A DNA stretch of 64,000 bases from a virus. Each line of letters opens with the position of its first letter. Positions within the stretch are counted from its first letter, which is position 1. This document shows positions 4,940 to 36,155 of this stretch, piece after piece. The DNA lies in the IMG/VR virus record IMGVR_UViG_3300033485_000002, positions 64,001 to 128,000 of that record; one strand, 5' to 3'. The position numbers and the translations under genes were made by a program. A model generated the notes under the pieces. The model saw nothing but the letters and a program-made list of their open reading frames with translations. It did not search any database and had not been told where the DNA came from.

Positions 4940-6193
4940 ATGGCTAATCTTACTCCCATCTACGATCACAATTGCACGCTCTGCCCCTTACATAAAGTGC
5001 CGGGGGTTACTTGTTTGTCCGGGATCGGCAACCTGGACGACCCGAGCATCCTTATAGTGGGGGATGGGCCGTCGAAGCAGGAGGTGCTGCTTGGTCGGGC
5101 GTTCGGCGATGAGCGGGGTAGGCTGCTCGCTCAGTCGCTCGATGAGATCGGTTTCCCCATCGGGCCTAAAGGCGATGTGTTTGCTACCTACGCCGTTAAG
5201 TGCTTCCCGTCTGGTAAGGTAAAGGTTAAGGATGCCAAGATTTGCGCGGCGAAGTATCTCAACCAGGAGATCGACCTTTTCCGCCCGAAGTTGGTTATAG
5301 CGCTGGGTAAAACCGCCCAATATGCCGTCTTGGGTAGTACTGCACCTATCTCTAAAACTAGGGGCAAGCTGTTCCCCTTAGTTCGTACCGACGCAGCAGG
5401 AAATGAGTGGACAACCCAGGTCATGCCGGTGGATCATCCATTCTCTATCCTCACCACACCGGCCAAGCTGGACCCGTGGCTCGCTGATCTGCGGCGGGCT
5501 AAGGCGGTGTTTTATGGCGACGGAAATCCTTACTGGTCGCCGGAGAAGCTGGAGCGGTTTGACTTTAAAGTGATTGATTCTATCGCGCAGTTCAAAGCAG
5601 TTGCACGGGAGCTTATTGCCAAGCACAGGGGCGAGTACCTAGCTATCGACATTGAAGCTAGTGGTGTTGATGAGGCTATGAACGATGATGACTTTCGGGT
5701 TTTCAGCTTGCAGTTCGGGCTTATAGATTTGGAGGGGCGCGAGGAACATCCGGTCTACTTCCTACCCATCCAGTCGGCGGGGTTCCCGTGGACATCTGAG
5801 GCTAAGTGGCTGGATAATACCGCCCGCCTGCTGAATCGGTTTCTGAGCACGGACTACTTCAAGCTGGTGGGGCATAACCTAAAGTACGATTTGAAAGCGC
5901 TTAGACGGATTGGTGTAACTGAAGCATATGCCGTCTATGACACGCTGATGGCATGGTCAATTGCACATGGTGAAGCACCGTTGTCTCTGAAAACAATTGC
6001 TTACGAGGTTAGTGATTTAGGTGGGTACGAAGTCCTTATGGATCAGTACTTTAAGGAGCACGGTACTTATGACGCCCCCCCCGAAATTCTAATCTCGTAC
6101 AGTTGCCTTGATGTTGTGCTTGTGCGCTACCTTTTTAGTGAGCTGTACAAAACGATCCTTCAAGAGAAAAAGCGTGTTAACATTGGAGTATGA
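4940..6193 (+). CDS. Uracil-DNA glycosylase family 4-like domain fused to DnaQ-like 3'-5' exonuclease (N-terminal half of split DNA polymerase A)
   Basis: CTLCPLH, IVGDGP, AVKCFP...C, LVIALG and HP motifs (UDG-4); ExoI DIEASG, ExoII GHNLKYD, ExoIII YSCLD. Confidence 0.85.
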   Translation: MANLTPIYDHNCTLCPLHKVPGVTCLSGIGNLDDPSILIVGDGPSKQEVLLGRAFGDERGRLLAQSLDEIGFPIGPKGDVFATYAVKCFPSGKVKVKDAKICAAKYLNQEIDLFRPKLVIALGKTAQYAVLGSTAPISKTRGKLFPLVRTDAAGNEWTTQVMPVDHPFSILTTPAKLDPWLADLRRAKAVFYGDGNPYWSPEKLERFDFKVIDSIAQFKAVARELIAKHRGEYLAIDIEASGVDEAMNDDDFRVFSLQFGLIDLEGREEHPVYFLPIQSAGFPWTSEAKWLDNTARLLNRFLSTDYFKLVGHNLKYDLKALRRIGVTEAYAVYDTLMAWSIAHGEAPLSLKTIAYEVSDLGGYEVLMDQYFKEHGTYDAPPEILISYSCLDVVLVRYLFSELYKTILQEKKRVNIGV

Positions 6194-6293: not shown

Positions 6294-7778
6294 ATGATTC
6301 GGTTCCATTCGGATGCCGAAGGCGGTAGTCCTCGGTGGCTGTGTGATTATCAGTCTCTATTGGTCAATGCTTTTGTCGATATTGAGAGCTGCGGTTTTCC
6401 TTTCGATCCTATTCAACATGCACAGTTTATCGAGAATGCCGAACGTACTTATGCCGAGTACGAACGGCGATTGATGACCAGCCCCCAACTGCAAGCCTAC
6501 ATCCAGCAGAAGGGGCTGCCCGCTACGGGTAAACGGGCGTTTAACCTGTCCTCGGCCACCCAACTCCAGGAGTTCCTCTTCAGCCCGCGTAGTTCAGGGG
6601 GCCTGGAGCTTGTACCCGTAAAGCGCTCTAAGCTGACGGATAAGGCTAGTTCCGACCGAGAGTCCTTGCAGCATTTCGCTCAGGCAGGCAACGCTTTCTG
6701 CTCGGATCTATTGGTGTTACGGAATTTCGGTAAGCTATTGTCGTCGTTTGGTGAGCCGCTCTTAAAGTTCTACTGTCCTCGCACCGGAGCAGTTCACCCG
6801 ACCTACTTCCTGGCCAAGGTGACAGATAGTGCTGGGGTTGCAGGCGGTACTGCGACCGGACGGCTGTCGTGCAAGCACCCCAACATGCAGCAGCTACCGA
6901 AGCGGGATAAAGATGACAAGGGAATTGGGCTGGCGGGGATCGACGTGCGGAAGTCCTTCGTGCCGTTTCCGGGCCACATCCTTATAGAGTGCGACCAGAG
7001 CCAGATCGAGGTGCGGGTCGCCGGGATGTACGCTAAGGATACGACGATGGGTAAGTTCTTCGATGAGGGGGGAGACTTCCACATCCGGGTGGCCTCTCAG
7101 GTGTTCCAACAGGATTTCGATCATATGGTCGAGGTGTTGGCGAATGAGCACCATCCCGAGTACAAGAAGTTCAAGCAATTCCGTACTGCCGCTAAAACCT
7201 TTACCTTTGGTCTGATGTTCGGTATGGGGTTGAATAAGCTGACCAGACAATCCGGGTTGACTGAGGCTGAAGGTAAAGCTTTTATCGATGAGTACTTTGC
7301 TACTTTCCCTCAGTTCGCTTCGTGGCGTGAGGAGATGATTGATTGGGCTACCGAGCACGGATGGGTCCAAACCTTATTCGGGCGTAAAAGAACCATAAAG
7401 ATTAGCGGCTATGAAACGGAGGATGGTCGGGAGGAACGCATTGGCATCAACACTCCGATTCAGAGTGCGGCGGCAGATATTACTCTGTTTGCGCTCAGCC
7501 GGTTGTGGGAGTTCTTGAAGGCCAACGGTTACGGGGCAAAGATTCTTGGCACGGTCCATGACTCTATTATCTTCTCGGTGCCCTACGAGGAGTTCGAGGA
7601 GCTATTACCGGAGATAGCCCGGAGGATGATCCGTCCACCTGGGCTGGAGTGGCTTTTGGATGACGTGCCGATTCCCCTGTCGATTGGCATTGAGGCGGGG
7701 CCTAACCTCAAGGATATGCACAAGTTAGACCTCGATGACGTGCTGACCTGCTCCCTCGACGTAAAGGATTATCTATGA
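6294..7778 (+). CDS. polA: DNA polymerase family A, polymerase domain
   Basis: TATGRLSCKHPNMQQLP, motif A DQSQIEVR, motif B RTAAKTFTFGLMFG, NTPIQSAAAD, motif C TVHDS. Confidence 0.95.
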   Translation: MIRFHSDAEGGSPRWLCDYQSLLVNAFVDIESCGFPFDPIQHAQFIENAERTYAEYERRLMTSPQLQAYIQQKGLPATGKRAFNLSSATQLQEFLFSPRSSGGLELVPVKRSKLTDKASSDRESLQHFAQAGNAFCSDLLVLRNFGKLLSSFGEPLLKFYCPRTGAVHPTYFLAKVTDSAGVAGGTATGRLSCKHPNMQQLPKRDKDDKGIGLAGIDVRKSFVPFPGHILIECDQSQIEVRVAGMYAKDTTMGKFFDEGGDFHIRVASQVFQQDFDHMVEVLANEHHPEYKKFKQFRTAAKTFTFGLMFGMGLNKLTRQSGLTEAEGKAFIDEYFATFPQFASWREEMIDWATEHGWVQTLFGRKRTIKISGYETEDGREERIGINTPIQSAAADITLFALSRLWEFLKANGYGAKILGTVHDSIIFSVPYEEFEELLPEIARRMIRPPGLEWLLDDVPIPLSIGIEAGPNLKDMHKLDLDDVLTCSLDVKDYL

Positions 7779-8128
7779 GCGATGCAGACGAGTTCGAAGC
7801 GACTTTACCCGATGGTAAAGTAGTTGACGATCCAGCCGTGTTCACGAAAGCATGGAAGGAGTTCGCTGCGCTTGTAAGTGAAGAGTTTGATGAGCTTGAG
7901 CTAAAGGCGGTGGCCTTTAACCCAGGTGTTCTCTATGCCTTTGGCCCTGTGGTGAAACAATGGCATAGCCTGGAATTGCCTATGGCTTTTCATAAGGCAT
8001 TGAACGACCGGATCCAGGAGCTTCGACGCCTTCGTGAGTTCTTCTTTGAGATGGTGGAGATCAGCAAGCAGGCTGGTTTCTATACCGAGGTGAAGGACGT
8101 GATCGTGAAGGTGGGAAAGAGGGAGTGA
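7775..8128 (+). CDS. Hypothetical protein
   Basis: ATGA-coupled to polA. Confidence 0.6.
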   Translation: MSDADEFEATLPDGKVVDDPAVFTKAWKEFAALVSEEFDELELKAVAFNPGVLYAFGPVVKQWHSLELPMAFHKALNDRIQELRRLREFFFEMVEISKQAGFYTEVKDVIVKVGKRE

Positions 8129-30964: not shown

Positions 30965-31330
30965 GAGGAGGGGGAGTTATGCTGTGGTTTATCCTGGGTA
31001 TTGCCGTGGGCATCATCGCTTATCAGTACTTTCTCGAACATCCTGATAAGGTCAAGGCTACCTTCAGCAAGCTGTGGCAGATCATCAAGGCTCCCTTCCA
31101 GAAGAAACGCTGATGATCTGGCTCATTTACTTCGTTGGAGTCGGGGTAGCGTTGATCGCGTGTCTGTACTGCATAAGTGTCGTTTTTGACATGGGTCCGC
31201 TGCAAGCTGAAGACACTCTGATGGCTATGATTGCCGCAGTAGTTTGGCCGGTCATTCTTGTGGTCTTCGTGTTCTGGGCCTTCTGTGAGGGGATTGCGAT
31301 AACGTGGAACATGCTCAGTGCGTACTATCG

Positions 31331-31406
31331 GGGCCGTTAGCTCAGTTGGTAGAGCATTTGTCTTACACGCAAGTGGTCGCTGGTTCAAGTCCAGCACGGC
31401 CCACCA
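31331..31406 (+). tRNA. tRNA-Val(TAC)
   Basis: GGGCCGT/ACGGCCC acceptor stem, CT-TAC-AC loop, GTTCAAGTC T-arm, encoded CCA. Confidence 0.95.
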
Positions 31407-31427
31407 AAAATATTTTCTAAGAACCCC

Positions 31428-31456
31428 TTGACAACATCGACCACTTCACCTATCTT
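31428..31456 (+). promoter_or_regulatory. Sigma70-like promoter of the Cas7-like/array operon
   Basis: TTGACA-17 nt-TATCTT, then AGGAGG RBS. Confidence 0.75.
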
Positions 31457-31476
31457 AGGTACAGGAGGACAATACA

Positions 31477-32259
31477 ATGGTACGTAAGAAGAAAGAAGCG
31501 GTCGCCGAAAACGAAGAGATCCAGGTGTTTAAGGTCGAAAGGGGGGAAGTGTCGTACTGTGTTTTGGGTCTTACTCCACTGATCACGGAAGCGATGAGCG
31601 AGAAGGTGAAGCGGGAGCTGTTGCTGCCCAAGGGCCGTAAGACCGCTGCCGACAAGGCGGGCACGGCCAAGCACGATGTGCTGGAGGAGTACCGCAACAG
31701 CACCTATCAGGCGAAGGACGATACGTCTCCGACTCGGATCGTGATTCCGTCTACTGCCTTCAAGGGTGCGCTCAGGGACGTGGCGACCGATATCCCCGGT
31801 GCCGCAAAGGCGCAGATCGGTCGGTTGGCGTTTGTTAAGGGCTACCATATCCCCGTGTTCGGGGTGCCGCAGCTCATCATGTCGGTGGTTCGTAACTCGG
31901 ACCAGAACCATACTCCTGACATTAGGACTCGGGCGATCCTGCCTCGGTGGGCCTGCTATCTCACGATCGAGTACACGATCCCGCTGTTGAATGATGTTGT
32001 CGTGACCAACCTGCTGGCCGCTGCTGGCCTGATGCGGGGTATTGGTGGTTGGCGTCCGCAGAAGGGGGCTGGTGACTTCGGGCAGTTCACGCTCGTTGAC
32101 CAGGACAACCCCGAGTTCTTGGACATCGTTGCCACTGGTGGGCGTGAGCCGCAGGATCTGGCGCTGGCCGATCCTGAGTGTTTCGATAGCGAGACGGTGA
32201 ACATGCTGTCGTGGTTCATGGCGGAAACCAAGCGGCGTGGTCTCAAGGTTGTGAGCTAG
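31477..32259 (+). CDS. Cas7/RAMP-like (Vipr-like) RNA-guided effector protein
   Basis: RAMP hallmarks: G.TPL in the first strand, IPSTAFKGALRD, C-terminal G-rich loop AG..RGIGGWRPQKG.G.FGQF; directly upstream of the pentamer array. Confidence 0.8.
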   Translation: MVRKKKEAVAENEEIQVFKVERGEVSYCVLGLTPLITEAMSEKVKRELLLPKGRKTAADKAGTAKHDVLEEYRNSTYQAKDDTSPTRIVIPSTAFKGALRDVATDIPGAAKAQIGRLAFVKGYHIPVFGVPQLIMSVVRNSDQNHTPDIRTRAILPRWACYLTIEYTIPLLNDVVVTNLLAAAGLMRGIGGWRPQKGAGDFGQFTLVDQDNPEFLDIVATGGREPQDLALADPECFDSETVNMLSWFMAETKRRGLKVVS

Positions 32260-32267
32260 GAGGAATA

Positions 32268-32747
32268 ATGGAACACGAGCGGACGAAGATCATTCGGGAA
32301 GAGCTGATCCGCCTTGAGAACTCGCTGGGGACGTTGACCCCGGACAAGGTGGTCGAAGCAGCTACTCCTGTGAAGAGTCCAATCCACCCTTGCTTCGATT
32401 GGGACAATACCTCGGCAGGGCACAAGTACCGATTGGAGCAGGCGCGTGGTCTTATCCAGTCGGTGAAGTACCGGGTTACGACCGAGAAGAAGGTGTTTAC
32501 GGTGGCTCGGTATGTGCGTGACCCGAGGGTGGACCCTCAAACGCAGGGGTATGTCTCGGTGCCGAAGCTGAAGGAAGATCCTGCTGCGGCCCTGAAGGCG
32601 GTACAGTGGGAGTTTTCCAGAGTGCAGCAGGCACTGGAGCGTTTGGAGATCTTGGCCACGGTGCTGGAAGCCAAGTCGGTGGTTACGGCAGCCCGTAAGC
32701 ACATGAAGCGGGTGCAGGCTAAGGTGGAAAAGTCTTTTGCGATCTAG
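32268..32747 (+). CDS. Accessory protein of the Cas7-like locus (159 aa)
   Basis: GGAGG RBS; LTP..VV.AA....SPIHPCFDWD...A..YRLEQAR.LI motif; lies between effector and array. Confidence 0.75.
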   Translation: MEHERTKIIREELIRLENSLGTLTPDKVVEAATPVKSPIHPCFDWDNTSAGHKYRLEQARGLIQSVKYRVTTEKKVFTVARYVRDPRVDPQTQGYVSVPKLKEDPAAALKAVQWEFSRVQQALERLEILATVLEAKSVVTAARKHMKRVQAKVEKSFAI

Positions 32748-32752
32748 CCGAC

Positions 32753-33404
32753 ATTGTCACGGTTTAGCTGTCAAGGTACGATCGGGATTGTTCGGGTTTG
32801 TCAAGGAAAGTCAAGATCTGGCGCGGTCGGGTGAGGCTGTCGTGGTTCGGTCAGATCCGTTCAGGGATGTTAGGGAAAGATATGGTGTGTTCTGGTGGGG
32901 GAAGATTCGGATGGGCAAGGTGAGGCTGTCCAGGTAAGGTTCGGTGGGATGGGGCGTGTTACGGCGACTTAGGGTTAGTCATGGGCAGGTTCGGCTGTCA
33001 CGGTATGGCACGTTAGTTTCGGGTTAGTCAAGGACGGGAACGGTGCGATCAGGTCTGATCCGGTCTGACTGTCACGGTACGTGTCGTAGGGTAGGAAAAG
33101 GCAAGGCTCAGCATGTTAGGGTTCGGTGAGGCTAGGCTGTCACGGTGTCGTGAGGATGGGACCGGCAGGGCCGGGTTCGTTGCTGGCGTGGCATATTTTG
33201 GCGGGGCTTGGCTGTCATGGTGATTTTTGCGTTCAGGCGTGATTGGGCCTGACAGGATTCGATTAGGCAGGGCCGGGTAAGGTTTGGCTGTCACGGTGGG
33301 ATATGGACGGATCCGGAAGGGAGAGATGCGTTCTGGCGGGGTCTGGTGGGGCTGGGTGAGACCGGGTGGGACGAGATTTGGTAAGATCCGGTCAGGTCTG
33401 ACTG
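32753..33404 (+). ncRNA. Gapped-guide (VIPR-like) array: 8 units of (G/A)(G/A)CTGTC-NN handle plus G-led pentamers
   Basis: Handles at 32766, 32835, 32924, 32993, 33067, 33135, 33210 and 33286 (spacings 69, 89, 69, 74, 68, 75, 76, i.e. 9+5n with small indels); 5-nt periodic G between handles. Confidence 0.85.
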
Positions 33405-33411
33405 GTATGTT

Positions 33412-33487
33412 GGGGGAGTAGCCCAACGGTAGAGGCGGAGGACTTAAAATCCTTTCAGTGTGGGTTCGAATCCCACCTTCCCCACCA
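33412..33487 (+). tRNA. tRNA-Leu(TAA), short variable arm
   Basis: GGGGGAG/CTTCCCC acceptor stem, GAGGA-CT-TAA-AA-TCCTT, GTTCGAATC, CCA. Confidence 0.9.
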
Positions 33488-33497
33488 ATGTGCTAAG

Positions 33498-33568
33498 GGG
33501 GGTATCACTCAGTGGCCGAGTAGCGGGCTTTTAACCCGCCTACCAGGGTTCGATTCCCTGTGCCCCCA
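33498..33568 (+). tRNA. tRNA-Lys(TTT)
   Basis: GGGGGTA/TGCCCCC acceptor stem, GCGGG-CT-TTT-AA-CCCGC, GTTCGATTC; no encoded CCA. Confidence 0.85.
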
Positions 33569-33708
33569 CTTTTGGAGCTAATATGGACGAGCTTAATCAA
33601 AATGTTGAACGGTTGCTGTGGATCTGGAGTCTGCTCTGCCTCAGCGTAACTGTAGTGGGTTTGTTTATTTGGTGGATAGGGAGATATCGTGATAAGTAGG
33701 AGATAGGA

Positions 33709-33912
33709 ATGGCTTCGACTACGGCACTGGATAAGCGACTCACGGAGCTGGAGAACCTCATGAAGGAGGTTATCCGTGCCTCTGAGACAGCGACTCGTGT
33801 TTATGCTGAGAATCAAGAGCCGATCGAGCGCCGCTTCCATACTTTGGAAGCGAGAGTCAGTGCCGAGATCAACGGGGTCATTGAGCGACTGAATAAGTTA
33901 GAGGGCCGTTGA
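33709..33912 (+). CDS. Small coiled-coil protein
   Basis: AGGAG RBS; coupled to the next gene. Confidence 0.55.
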   Translation: MASTTALDKRLTELENLMKEVIRASETATRVYAENQEPIERRFHTLEARVSAEINGVIERLNKLEGR

Positions 33913-36155
33913 TGGCTACATACTACATGCGGGCTGATGGTAGCGCGACGAAAGCTAATGCTACTGGGCCGTCTTCTGATCCCACCAAGTGCATGAACAA
34001 GACCACGCATGACGCGGCCACGTTTTCCCCTGATGACTTCATCATATGCTCCGGGCTGGGTGGGATCTATCGAGGCTACTTCAGACCACCGTCAAGCGGG
34101 ACGGATGGGCATCCCATCACGTACATCGGAAGCGATTCTCCCCATTTTACGGCGAAAGAGTTAGCGACTGGGTGGACGCTCCATGCCGGGAATGTCTGGA
34201 AAGTAGCGTGGACACGGGGCGGTGATGTTAATGCCCAACACCTTTTTATCGACGGGGTAGATCAGGGATTAGGTCAGTCTGCGCTGGTGAATGTTGATGC
34301 CGAGGGTGAGTGGTTTCTTGATGACCCCGGCAACATGTTGTACTTATATGACAGCGGTGGAGATCCTGACGGGCACGTTGCTCCAGGGATTGAGATTAAC
34401 TCCGTTGAGCGCATCATAGAAGCCGGTAAGTCCTATACCATCTTCGATGGTTTGCACTTATCATGGGCGTCCTACGCACAGATCAGGTCGGATAACGCAG
34501 GAAGTCATGTCACTATCCGGAACTGTACTTGTGAGTACGGTAACCGTGGAATCAGTGCAACGACTACTGCGGGTACTTATACTGACTGGGAAATCTATGA
34601 TAATACGCTGCGTTACTTCTGGAACTCTGGGATTGAGTTTCTTCACGGAGGACGAGAGTCGCGCATCTACAGGAATCACATCCATGACGTTGACCATGAC
34701 TCGTTCGCCATTGGTTCAACTTATACGAACGGGATCAAGCTGTGGGATGACGGTGCCCTCACTGGATCTGTCGAAATCTTTGAAAATCTGATTTATGACA
34801 TTGGCCCAGGTGGTGCAGCGTCTGGCCCTGGTCAAGGATCTGGTATCTGGTTTGACCGTATCCAACCTGAAGCTGGTGACGAGTGTGTGGCGTACCACAA
34901 CTTCCTCTACAACTGCTCGGGGACCGGGGTCTTCATCGAGATCTCAAGGCATTGCATTGCCTACTCCAACGTGATGTACAACTGCGGTTATCACTCTGGA
35001 GGAACCGATGAGTTCAGTCCTTCCGGCATGAGAATCGATACTAGGACCGGGTACAATAGTGAATACAATTATGTGTATAACAACACCGTGTATGGGGGCC
35101 GTTGTGGGATGGTTGTGGCCGGTTACTATGATCATACTGCCGTCATTAGCTATAACGAGGTGAAGAACAACATCTTCATCGGCTGGACGGAGCACGGTCT
35201 TATCGCTCGTAACGGTGGGGATAACACTACGCTTCACGGGACCGGGGTTGGCAACGTCTACGAGCACAATTGCCTGGGGCCGGAATCCAATGCGCTTGTG
35301 CAGTGGAACTACCATCATGTTGGAACCCATGATGGGTGGGAAGCGATTGCTGACACTGCACATCATGTCGTTTTGCAGGATTACTGGCTGGATAATACAT
35401 CTCAGCCAGTTGACGGTAGTGGTGGCTATTGGTGGGGCATTGAAGTCCCGCTGAGTGGTACAGGTACAGTCAATGTTAAGCGGATATTTGCAAGGTTGTG
35501 TCGCGTTGGTACTCCTTCGAACAGCACCGCGAGGATGAGGATCTATGACAACAATGCCGGTGCGCCAGGGACCAGCATTGCGGAGACGACGCTTAATATT
35601 TCTGCCGTCACAACCGACAGCGTTGATGGTGATTGGTATGAGTTCGTCTTCTCTAGTTCGGTTACCCTGACCAAAGGTAGTACTTACTACTTTGTGATGG
35701 TTGGAGACTGGACTCACGATAACAACAACTGCGTTAAGATGTTTGGCAGAACCAGTGGTTACACCGGGGTTCATCATTCTTGGCGCTATAGTGGAACCTG
35801 GACAGAGACGACTGCGGCCACATTTGCTTTTATTGCTTTAGACGATACTTATGTCCCTGGGTGGATGCATAACGTCGAAGGAGATCCGCTTCTTGCAGAT
35901 GTTGAGGCCCACCAGTTCTGGCTCACAGAAACCTCTCCCTGCCTTGAAGCTGGAGTGGACCTTGGAGCGGATTACCGGTCTGGACTTCATCCATCGAGCG
36001 TTTGGCCAGATGGTGTAGTGACGGCCAATCAGAGTGGGGATTGGGATATGGGGGCATATATCTTTCCCTCTTCCGGGGGGCATTCAGCACTCCCACTCGG
36101 TCAAGCTTTTGACCAGGATGTCTTTTTCCCATCGTCAATAACTTGGATCGTATGA
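33912..36155 (+). CDS. Right-handed beta-helix (pectin-lyase-like) protein with C-terminal beta-sandwich; probable virion/tailspike-like protein
   Basis: Repeated I.N N.I/V.. turns (YNNTVYG, KNNIF, YRNHIHD); SPCLEAG...DMGAY motif. Confidence 0.7.
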   Translation: MATYYMRADGSATKANATGPSSDPTKCMNKTTHDAATFSPDDFIICSGLGGIYRGYFRPPSSGTDGHPITYIGSDSPHFTAKELATGWTLHAGNVWKVAWTRGGDVNAQHLFIDGVDQGLGQSALVNVDAEGEWFLDDPGNMLYLYDSGGDPDGHVAPGIEINSVERIIEAGKSYTIFDGLHLSWASYAQIRSDNAGSHVTIRNCTCEYGNRGISATTTAGTYTDWEIYDNTLRYFWNSGIEFLHGGRESRIYRNHIHDVDHDSFAIGSTYTNGIKLWDDGALTGSVEIFENLIYDIGPGGAASGPGQGSGIWFDRIQPEAGDECVAYHNFLYNCSGTGVFIEISRHCIAYSNVMYNCGYHSGGTDEFSPSGMRIDTRTGYNSEYNYVYNNTVYGGRCGMVVAGYYDHTAVISYNEVKNNIFIGWTEHGLIARNGGDNTTLHGTGVGNVYEHNCLGPESNALVQWNYHHVGTHDGWEAIADTAHHVVLQDYWLDNTSQPVDGSGGYWWGIEVPLSGTGTVNVKRIFARLCRVGTPSNSTARMRIYDNNAGAPGTSIAETTLNISAVTTDSVDGDWYEFVFSSSVTLTKGSTYYFVMVGDWTHDNNNCVKMFGRTSGYTGVHHSWRYSGTWTETTAATFAFIALDDTYVPGWMHNVEGDPLLADVEAHQFWLTETSPCLEAGVDLGADYRSGLHPSSVWPDGVVTANQSGDWDMGAYIFPSSGGHSALPLGQAFDQDVFFPSSITWIV

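What the first reader, a model, noticed from the sequence alone, without database searches (positions are those of the whole stretch)
33210..33285. Unit 7 spells the integrase HxxR box in antisense
NN = AT GA [ttttt] GC CA GT TG CT AG TC TA AG CG AA TT. The reverse complement, AA TT CG CT TA GA CT AG CA AC TG GC TC AT, decodes to [NK][FL]-R-L-Y-[DE]-L-[SR]-[HQ]-T-[CW]-A-S-[IM], i.e. 'RLYDLRHT(C/W)AS', the Y-variant of the HDLRHT motif. This reading treats the one out-of-register stretch (TTTTT) as a degenerate scaffold slot.
Basis: partly seen in the sequence, partly recalled or inferred. Interest (0 to 1): 0.9.

Follow-up and report, generated by a model that had tools for sequence, protein, structure and literature searches.

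The report
Phage VIPR guide aimed at integrases
This 76-base stretch is one guide-RNA unit of a phage-borne VIPR system, a CRISPR-like RNA-guided gene silencer first described in 2026.

Summary
The observation and its interpretation are both confirmed. Window 33210-33285 is unit 7 of eight in a 664-nt gene-free array (32748-33411). The array is built of about 130 pentamers: a G-(G/A/T)-pyrimidine scaffold triplet followed by two free bases (NN). It follows a two-gene operon. The 260-aa product is a Cas7-like RAMP whose family profile hits only 'SUSP1 Vipr protein' in the PDB. The 159-aa product weakly resembles SUSP1 Vap1. This is the VIPR architecture of three 2026 bioRxiv preprints, in which NN pairs with DNA and every third target base is skipped.

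The unrelaxed regex gave 43 hits in metagenome contigs. All 88 lie in frame at box II of tyrosine integrase genes. Three metagenome loci (L103 and L104 share the same box-II peptide, plus L105) match the 12-NN guide 24/24. Unit 6 maps 20 codons downstream in the same genes; in locus L088 unit 6 scores 26/28 and unit 7 scores 22/24. Unit 8's first ten NN hit box I. No guide matches the phage's own genome.

It is a new member of a known kind: recombinase active-site targeting by VIPR is already published, for a serine recombinase. Earlier notes of this scan on this same window proposed the VIPR reading.

The parts
31428..31456 (+). sigma-70-like promoter (10 of 12 consensus positions, 17-nt spacer) upstream of vipr
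   Evidence: Consensus scan. This is a match to a consensus only; no function was shown.
31477..32259 (+). vipr: 260-aa Cas7-like RAMP protein (phrog_4652; no Pfam family)
   Evidence: Profile A1 hits only PDB 36pp_D 'SUSP1 Vipr protein', E 0.0096. hhalign gives 93% probability over the thumb Arg and G-loop. The AF2 model (pLDDT 81) matches Csm3/Cas7 chains at E about 2e-5. More than 1,272 homologues were found.
32268..32747 (+). vap-like accessory gene, 159 aa (phrog_15946)
   Evidence: Called as a 159-aa gene on 16 contigs. Weak BLASTP similarity to SUSP1 Vap1: 23% over 88 aa, pairwise E 6e-4. It occupies the same position as vap1 in the SUSP1 locus.
32748..33411 (+). vrRNA array: 8 units of 12-22 scaffold-triplet/NN pentamers, joined by a 9-nt junction step (GGC-TG-TC + NN) that shifts the phase by -1
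   Evidence: The array is 100% identical in five other metagenome contigs.
33135..33209 (+). unit 6: its antisense reading matches the NPK..ERLGHS segment of integrases, 20 codons downstream of the unit 7 site
   Evidence: 26/28 NN in L088; the 7-NN 3' part is 14/14 in L088, L096 and L102.
33210..33285 (+). unit 7, the finding: junction, GGT-GA, TTTTT, then the 12-NN guide
33224..33228 (+). TTTTT: a 5-nt stretch where a 3-nt scaffold triplet is expected (+2 indel)
   Evidence: Register analysis. A weak terminator-like hairpin plus T-run overlaps it, but such sites are no more frequent here than in shuffles.
33229..33285 (+). 12 in-phase NN of unit 7; the reverse complement read as NNx codons spells box II (Tyr variant of HxxR) of tyrosine integrases
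   Evidence: 24/24 in L103, L104 and L105; 23/24 in eight further loci. All 88 pattern hits are in frame in integrase genes.
33286..33411 (+). unit 8 (22 NN): its sense reading matches box I (catalytic Arg)
   Evidence: The first ten NN give 4 exact IMG/VR hits, all in frame at box I. It scores only 26-28/44 in the genes that unit 7 hits.
33412..33569 (+). tRNA-Leu(UAA) and tRNA-Lys(UUU), directly after the last unit
   Evidence: ARAGORN and Rfam.

Best explanation
Unit 7 is one guide (vrRNA) of a phage-encoded VIPR system. By analogy with SUSP1, the 260-aa Vipr protein would polymerise along the transcript with one protomer per pentamer, hiding each scaffold triplet and presenting the two NN bases. 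The NN bases would pair with DNA while every third target base is skipped. Read this way, unit 7 is complementary to the coding strand of tyrosine integrase genes at box II, in the variant that has Tyr in place of the first His, with the skipped bases on the wobble positions. Units 6 and 8 address the neighbouring LGH segment and box I. The likely role is to silence the integrase or excisionase-partner gene of competing temperate phages, satellites or islands in the host during infection.

Shown here: the anatomy, the protein homology and the target matches. Inferred from the SUSP1 and P. fulva work: transcription, filament formation, silencing and the ecological role.
For: Architecture: promoter-like site, RAMP gene, small accessory gene, then the array, in the same order as the SUSP1 locus.

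Protein: the family profile hits only SUSP1 Vipr in the PDB. hhalign gives 93% over the thumb Arg and G-loop. Foldseek's top hits are Csm3/Cas7 chains at E about 2e-5.

RNA code: 108 in-phase pentamers with a conserved triplet and uniform NN.

Targets: 45 hits against about 2 expected, plus 43 more, all in frame at integrase box II. There are three 24/24 matches. Unit 6 scores 26/28 and unit 7 scores 22/24 in the same L088 gene. The target ORFs are PF00589. A reversed control pattern gave 0 hits against 8 in 401 Acidobacteriota genomes. No guide of 12 NN or more reaches 80% on the phage's own genome.

Literature: the 1-nt skip rule, wobble alignment, targets on both strands and the 80% NN criterion (10.64898/2026.04.26.720920); the filament structure (10.64898/2026.04.26.720927); recombinase active-site targeting (10.64898/2026.10.15.759431).
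Against: There are no expression data, so vrRNA ends and processing are unknown.

The array lacks the conserved ~40-nt 3' tail and pseudoknot of the studied type II vrRNAs.

This Vipr has Gly where SUSP1 has D177, a residue whose Ala mutant lost silencing.

Unit 7 carries a +2 indel (TTTTT, no G) that should interrupt the filament near its 5' end.

Box II is so widespread that the matching loci span many phyla. Neither the host nor the real target element is identified.

The exact pattern has no hit in IMG/VR.
Confidence: 0.82

Rival explanations
1. The guide is genuine, but unit 7 is a decaying or inactive copy. The TTTTT insertion removes a scaffold triplet and shifts the register, so the unit is a fossil of an earlier target rather than a working guide.
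For: Units 5, 6 and 7 are the only ones with indels: -1, +1 and +2. In SUSP1, perturbing the scaffold motifs abolished silencing.
Against: Twelve uninterrupted pentamers remain 3' of the TTTTT, which is within the 9-16 repeats of working vrRNAs, and they still match natural genes 24/24. The array is identical in five other metagenome contigs that carry the same Vap protein, so there is no sign of drift.
Confidence: 0.1
2. The array is a DNA-level element, such as iterons of a replication origin, a packaging or partition site, or a G-rich R-loop region. On this view the integrase-like decoding is coincidence.
For: Eight 12-bp cores at about 70-bp spacing look like iterons. The + strand is 41% G. 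Several assemblies break inside the array.
Against: Coincidence cannot give 88 of 88 in-frame hits in one gene family, three 24/24 matches and a second unit at 26/28 in the same gene. The adjacent gene is a Vipr homologue. Relatives keep the 5-nt period next to the gene pair but not the sequence. GC skew shows no switch here.
Confidence: 0.03
3. The guides act on RNA, with unit 7 as an antisense to integrase mRNA, rather than on double-stranded DNA.
For: Units 6 and 7 are antisense to the coding strand, so they could pair with mRNA. VIPR filaments can take an RNA target strand in vitro.
Against: Unit 8 reads in sense and cannot pair with the mRNA. In SUSP1 the full filament and silencing need a DNA third strand, and targets lie on both strands.
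Confidence: 0.05

Closest known systems
SUSP1 / Pseudomonas fulva type II VIPR systems (bioRxiv 10.64898/2026.04.26.720920 and .720927)
   Same: The locus has the same vipr-vap-array order and the same pentamer scaffold/NN guides. The 1-nt skip rule is aligned to wobble positions, targets lie on both strands, and there is no self-targeting. The thumb Arg and G-loop W-R-P are conserved.
   Different: The protein is longer (260 vs about 200 aa) and only remotely related, alignable over about 50 residues. Scaffold position 2 is relaxed (G/A/T). There is no 3' tail or pseudoknot, and no per-unit promoter-like sequences of the kind seen between SUSP1 units. Units abut through a 9-nt junction and run into two tRNA genes. 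The G-loop has Gly in place of the Asp that reads G1 in SUSP1.
SUSP1 vrRNA4 targeting the F5 satellite recombinase (bioRxiv 10.64898/2026.10.15.759431)
   Same: A phage guide is laid on active-site codons of a competitor's integration/excision enzyme, reading only codon positions 1 and 2. Escape therefore requires breaking the enzyme.
   Different: There the target is a large serine recombinase hit by one short guide. Here the targets are tyrosine integrases, and three guides cover box I, box II and the LGH segment. Function was shown there and is only inferred here.
'Staggered' vrRNA arrays mentioned in the first VIPR paper (its fig. S18 legend)
   Same: [quoted passage not shown] The -1 phase step at each junction here fits that description.
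   Different: Only the figure legend could be read, not the figure or the sequences. Identity of architecture or VIPR type could not be tested.
Class 1 CRISPR Cas7 backbone (Csm3/Cmr4)
   Same: Both use a RAMP fold with a thumb and G-loop that polymerises on a guide RNA and breaks pairing periodically. Csm3/Cmr4 chains are the best Foldseek matches.
   Different: There is no CRISPR repeat-spacer array and there are no other cas genes in the window. Two of every five guide bases pair here, against five of every six in Class 1 CRISPR.

Membership tests
VIPR system | Vipr protein: a minimal RAMP with RRM core, thumb and glycine-rich loop | tested here: met
   The only PDB sequence hit of profile A1 is SUSP1 Vipr (36pp_D, E 0.0096), aligned over thumb Arg152 and the G-loop. 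hhalign probability is 93%. The AF2 model (pLDDT 81) hits Csm3/Cas7 chains at probability 1.00.
VIPR system | G-loop and thumb residues that read the scaffold (SUSP1 R138, D177, W178, R179) | tested here: inconclusive
   The equivalents of R138, W178 and R179 are present. The D177 equivalent is Gly in this protein and in its two closest relatives, but Asp in 26 of the 30 family members aligned.
VIPR system | Minimal two-gene locus (vipr + vap) outside any CRISPR context | tested here: met
   A 159-aa gene follows directly, with weak similarity to SUSP1 Vap1. No Rfam CRISPR family hit was found in 31000-35000.
VIPR system | Flanking non-coding tract of at least 4 tandem pentamers with a conserved triplet and hypervariable NN | tested here: met
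   108 in-phase pentamers: G 95% / G,A,T / pyrimidine 86% / uniform NN. Relatives carry such tracts next to the same gene pair.
VIPR system | NN specify natural targets by the 1-nt skip rule at 80% NN match or better, mostly wobble-aligned in coding sequence | tested here: met
   Unit 7 scores 24/24 in three loci. Unit 6 scores 26/28 in L088. All are in frame with the skipped base at codon position 3.
VIPR system | No self-targeting at the 80% threshold | tested here: met
   With the array masked, the best own-genome matches are 59-71% for guides of 12 NN or more.
VIPR system | vrRNAs are expressed and co-purify with Vipr; silencing is programmable | not testable with these tools
   No RNA-seq or biochemistry exists for this uncultured phage.
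Type II VIPR (SUSP1 clade) | Invariant ~40-nt 3' tail with hairpin and pseudoknot after each repeat tract | tested here: not met
   Units are separated only by the 9-nt junction step. Compare the SUSP1 array read. This locus is therefore not filed as type II.
Tyrosine recombinase (the targets) | Pfam PF00589 catalytic domain with box I Arg, box II HxxR and LGH...Y | tested here: met
   Six target ORFs score 68-96 bits against a cut-off of 27.1. The peptides around all 88 hits show box II followed by LGH and the Tyr region.

The most novel reading that the evidence does not exclude
The guide set is written against protein-level invariant catalytic boxes (box I, box II, LGH) rather than against one competitor. 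Because wobble bases are skipped, a single phage could then silence tyrosine integrases of many unrelated temperate elements. It would do so from a tail-less array type, processed at a 9-nt junction and ending in tRNAs, that has not been characterised experimentally.
Probability: 0.3. Interest if true: 0.7.

Novelty: new member of a known kind. Interest (0 to 1): 0.55.

Why it matters
The result shows that a VIPR guide can be read as a degenerate peptide to name its target class when no host or target genome is known. It extends published recombinase targeting by VIPR, shown for a serine recombinase in E. coli satellites, to tyrosine integrases. The system here sits in a distant and very large Vipr clade: more than 1,272 homologues, no Pfam family, PHROG annotation 'unknown function'. 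It is carried by a 168-kb phage assembled from environmental metagenomes. It also gives concrete 36-nt targets for a reporter test of a VIPR type that has not been studied.

Tried and rejected
Before the VIPR lead I considered several other readings. These were origin iterons, a packaging or partition site, an R-loop or G-quadruplex tract, a TRAP-like ring-protein RNA site, and degenerate tRNA-sized units. None explains the target matches.

A core-pair pattern in IMG/VR gave five loci. They are coding 69-bp repeats or coincidences with no period-5 signal.

Single-protein locus searches with vap and with the downstream beta-helix gene found no relatives.

blastn of the region against GenBank phages hit only the tRNA. 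Rfam gave nothing in the array.

Units 1-5 gave no match of 80% or better in the 88 fetched integrase loci, and unit 3 showed no consistent in-frame position there. The earlier notes on unit 3 and units 1-2 therefore remain untested.

That is not needed: the spacing in L088 fits an ordinary NN (GC, Ala) plus one bulged base.

One metagenome scan failed on a busy server and was repeated successfully.

Full report
WHAT IS THERE. The window is bases 64001-128000 of a 168,260-base virus record. The two ends of the record overlap by about 640 bases, so the assembly closes into a circle of roughly 167.6 kb. Two other assemblies of 167.6-167.8 kb start at different points. The finding lies in a 664-nt stretch that gene callers leave without a gene, at 32748-33411. 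It sits between a 159-aa gene and tRNA-Leu and tRNA-Lys. On the + strand the stretch is 41% G and 16% C. Eight copies of a 12-nt core sit at spacings of 69, 89, 69, 74, 68, 75 and 76 nt. G autocorrelation peaks at every multiple of 5. The period-5 signal is the strongest in the whole genome by a wide margin.

PENTAMER STRUCTURE. Laid out in fives, each unit is a junction (GGC-TG-TC plus two bases, a 9-nt step that shifts the phase by -1) followed by 12-22 pentamers. Over 108 in-phase pentamers, position 1 is G in 95%. Position 2 is G, A or T and never C. Position 3 is a pyrimidine in 86%. Positions 4 and 5 are uniform. Unit 7 has a 2-nt excess at TTTTT (33224-33228).

HOW THE IDENTIFICATION CAME ABOUT. 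I first treated the array as iterons or as a site for a polymeric protein that binds 5 nt per subunit. Distant homologues of the upstream 159-aa protein (42% identity) were followed at once by other period-5 tracts, and the contigs ended inside those tracts. Homologues of the 260-aa protein also carry such tracts between or after the two genes, in unrelated genomic contexts. The gene pair plus a period-5 tract therefore form a conserved cassette whose sequence is not conserved. A literature search then found three 2026 bioRxiv preprints that describe exactly this. In them, Vipr is a minimal RAMP protein that polymerises on vrRNAs made of alternating scaffold triplets and NN. The NN bases pair with DNA while every third target base is skipped. 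Natural targets are mostly coding, wobble-aligned and on either strand.

MEMBERSHIP. A profile of 30 homologues of the 260-aa protein hits one PDB sequence only, 'SUSP1 Vipr protein' (36pp_D, E 0.0096). The alignment covers the thumb Arg and the G-loop. hhalign against the SUSP1 gene product gives 93% probability. An AlphaFold2 model (pLDDT 81) finds Csm3/Cas7 backbone subunits as its best PDB matches. The SUSP1 locus has the same order of vipr, vap and array, and the 159-aa protein weakly resembles SUSP1 Vap1. What does not fit type II is the lack of a 3' tail and pseudoknot. The units abut, which resembles the 'staggered' arrays named in a figure legend of the first paper. I could not test that resemblance.

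THE CLAIM ITSELF.
- The exact 10-NN pattern has no match in the window or in IMG/VR.
- In genome contigs, with Tyr or His allowed at one codon, it gave 45 hits where about 2.2 are expected by chance. Every hit is in frame at box II of a tyrosine recombinase gene, followed by the LGH and catalytic-Tyr segments. Ten carry the Tyr variant, so that variant is a real natural one.
- In metagenome contigs the Tyr-only pattern gave 43 hits, again all in frame at box II.
- Six of the ORFs were scanned and all are PF00589 with N-terminal SAM-like domains.
- The full 12-NN guide matches 24/24 in L103, L104 and L105, and 23/24 in eight further loci. The chance of a 24/24 match is 4^-24 per position.
- In 401 Acidobacteriota genomes the pattern with up to 3 mismatches hit 8 times, and the reversed control 0 times.
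- With the array masked, no guide of 12 NN or more exceeds 71% on the phage's own genome.

SHARED GENES. Unit 6, read in antisense, lands 20-26 codons downstream of the unit 7 site in the same genes. Its 3' seven NN are 14/14 in L088, L096 and L102. The whole 14-NN unit, including the junction NN, is 26/28 in L088, where unit 7 is 22/24. One natural integrase is therefore addressed by two adjacent guides above the published 80% criterion. Unit 8, read in sense, maps to box I about 108-114 codons upstream, but scores only 26-28/44 in these genes. Its first ten NN have four exact IMG/VR hits, all in frame at box I of other integrases. Having both sense and antisense guides fits DNA targeting rather than mRNA targeting.

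OPEN POINTS.
- The reading across TTTTT as one scaffold slot predicts a TC codon (Ser) after the Ala. L105 has TCA there, but 70 of 87 hits have AC (Thr). This detail rests on one locus.
- This Vipr has Gly at the position of SUSP1 D177, whereas 26 of the 30 family members aligned keep Asp.
- The matching loci come from many phyla and from samples other than those that hold the phage. The real competitor and the host remain unknown.
- The L088 integrase sits beside a type I restriction-modification methylase and specificity subunit and a DUF7227 gene. That looks like an integrative island rather than an obvious prophage.

NOVELTY. The system, its code, and the idea of aiming guides at active-site codons of a competitor's recombinase are all published: the recombinase case is, for a serine recombinase of E. 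coli satellites. What is new here is the member. It belongs to a very large, unannotated Vipr clade, sits in a 168-kb phage assembled from environmental metagenomes, has a tail-less eight-unit array, and has at least three guides on the catalytic boxes of tyrosine integrases.

Noticed in passing
L015, L016, L017, L018, L019 (contig ends): Five independent metagenome contigs end inside the pentamer array just after the vap gene. The array seems to break short-read assemblies, so VIPR arrays may be systematically truncated in metagenomes.
   Followed up: partly
L021:6777-6936; L022:6786-7095; L023:6771-6868 and 7359-7810; ends of L018 and L019: Homologous vipr-vap pairs in unrelated phage contexts carry period-5 tracts. 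The contexts are a lambda-like head module, a position after portal and protease genes, and a 182-kb contig. The tracts lie between the two genes, after them, or both. Their sequences are not conserved, but the 5-nt period is.
   Followed up: partly
alignment A1, G-loop column (window protein residues 188-194): G-loop variants may track the scaffold consensus. P0094 has Gly for the Trp that stacks on the second G in SUSP1, and its array (L022) is rich in GAT triplets. The window's protein has Gly for the Asp, and its array also relaxes scaffold position 2. Proteins with the D-W pair (L021, L023) have strict GG. The sample is far too small to conclude anything.
   Followed up: partly
window 31477-32259 (family-wide): The Vipr-like protein has more than 1,272 homologues at 50-65% identity in the large protein collection. 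It has no Pfam family, and PHROGs lists it as phrog_4652 'unknown function'; vap is phrog_15946. Remote homologues (27-29% identity) are annotated 'hypothetical protein' in 25 Mycobacterium and 5 Gordonia phage records.
   Followed up: partly
window 33412-33569: tRNA-Leu(UAA) starts one base after the last pentamer of unit 8, and tRNA-Lys(UUU) follows. tRNA processing could define the 3' end of the last vrRNA.
   Followed up: no
window 32754-32782: A promoter-like site (9 of 12 consensus positions) lies at the very start of the array. It overlaps a ninth, partial junction-like motif at 32755 that lacks the GGC.
   Followed up: no
window 4940-6193 and 6294-7778: The family A DNA polymerase (phrog_17) is encoded as two adjacent ORFs that cover successive parts of the profile. 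It may be a split gene or may be interrupted by an intervening element.
   Followed up: no
window 32775-33134 (units 1-5): Units 1-5 found no target at 80% NN or better in the loci fetched here, so their targets are unknown.
   Followed up: partly
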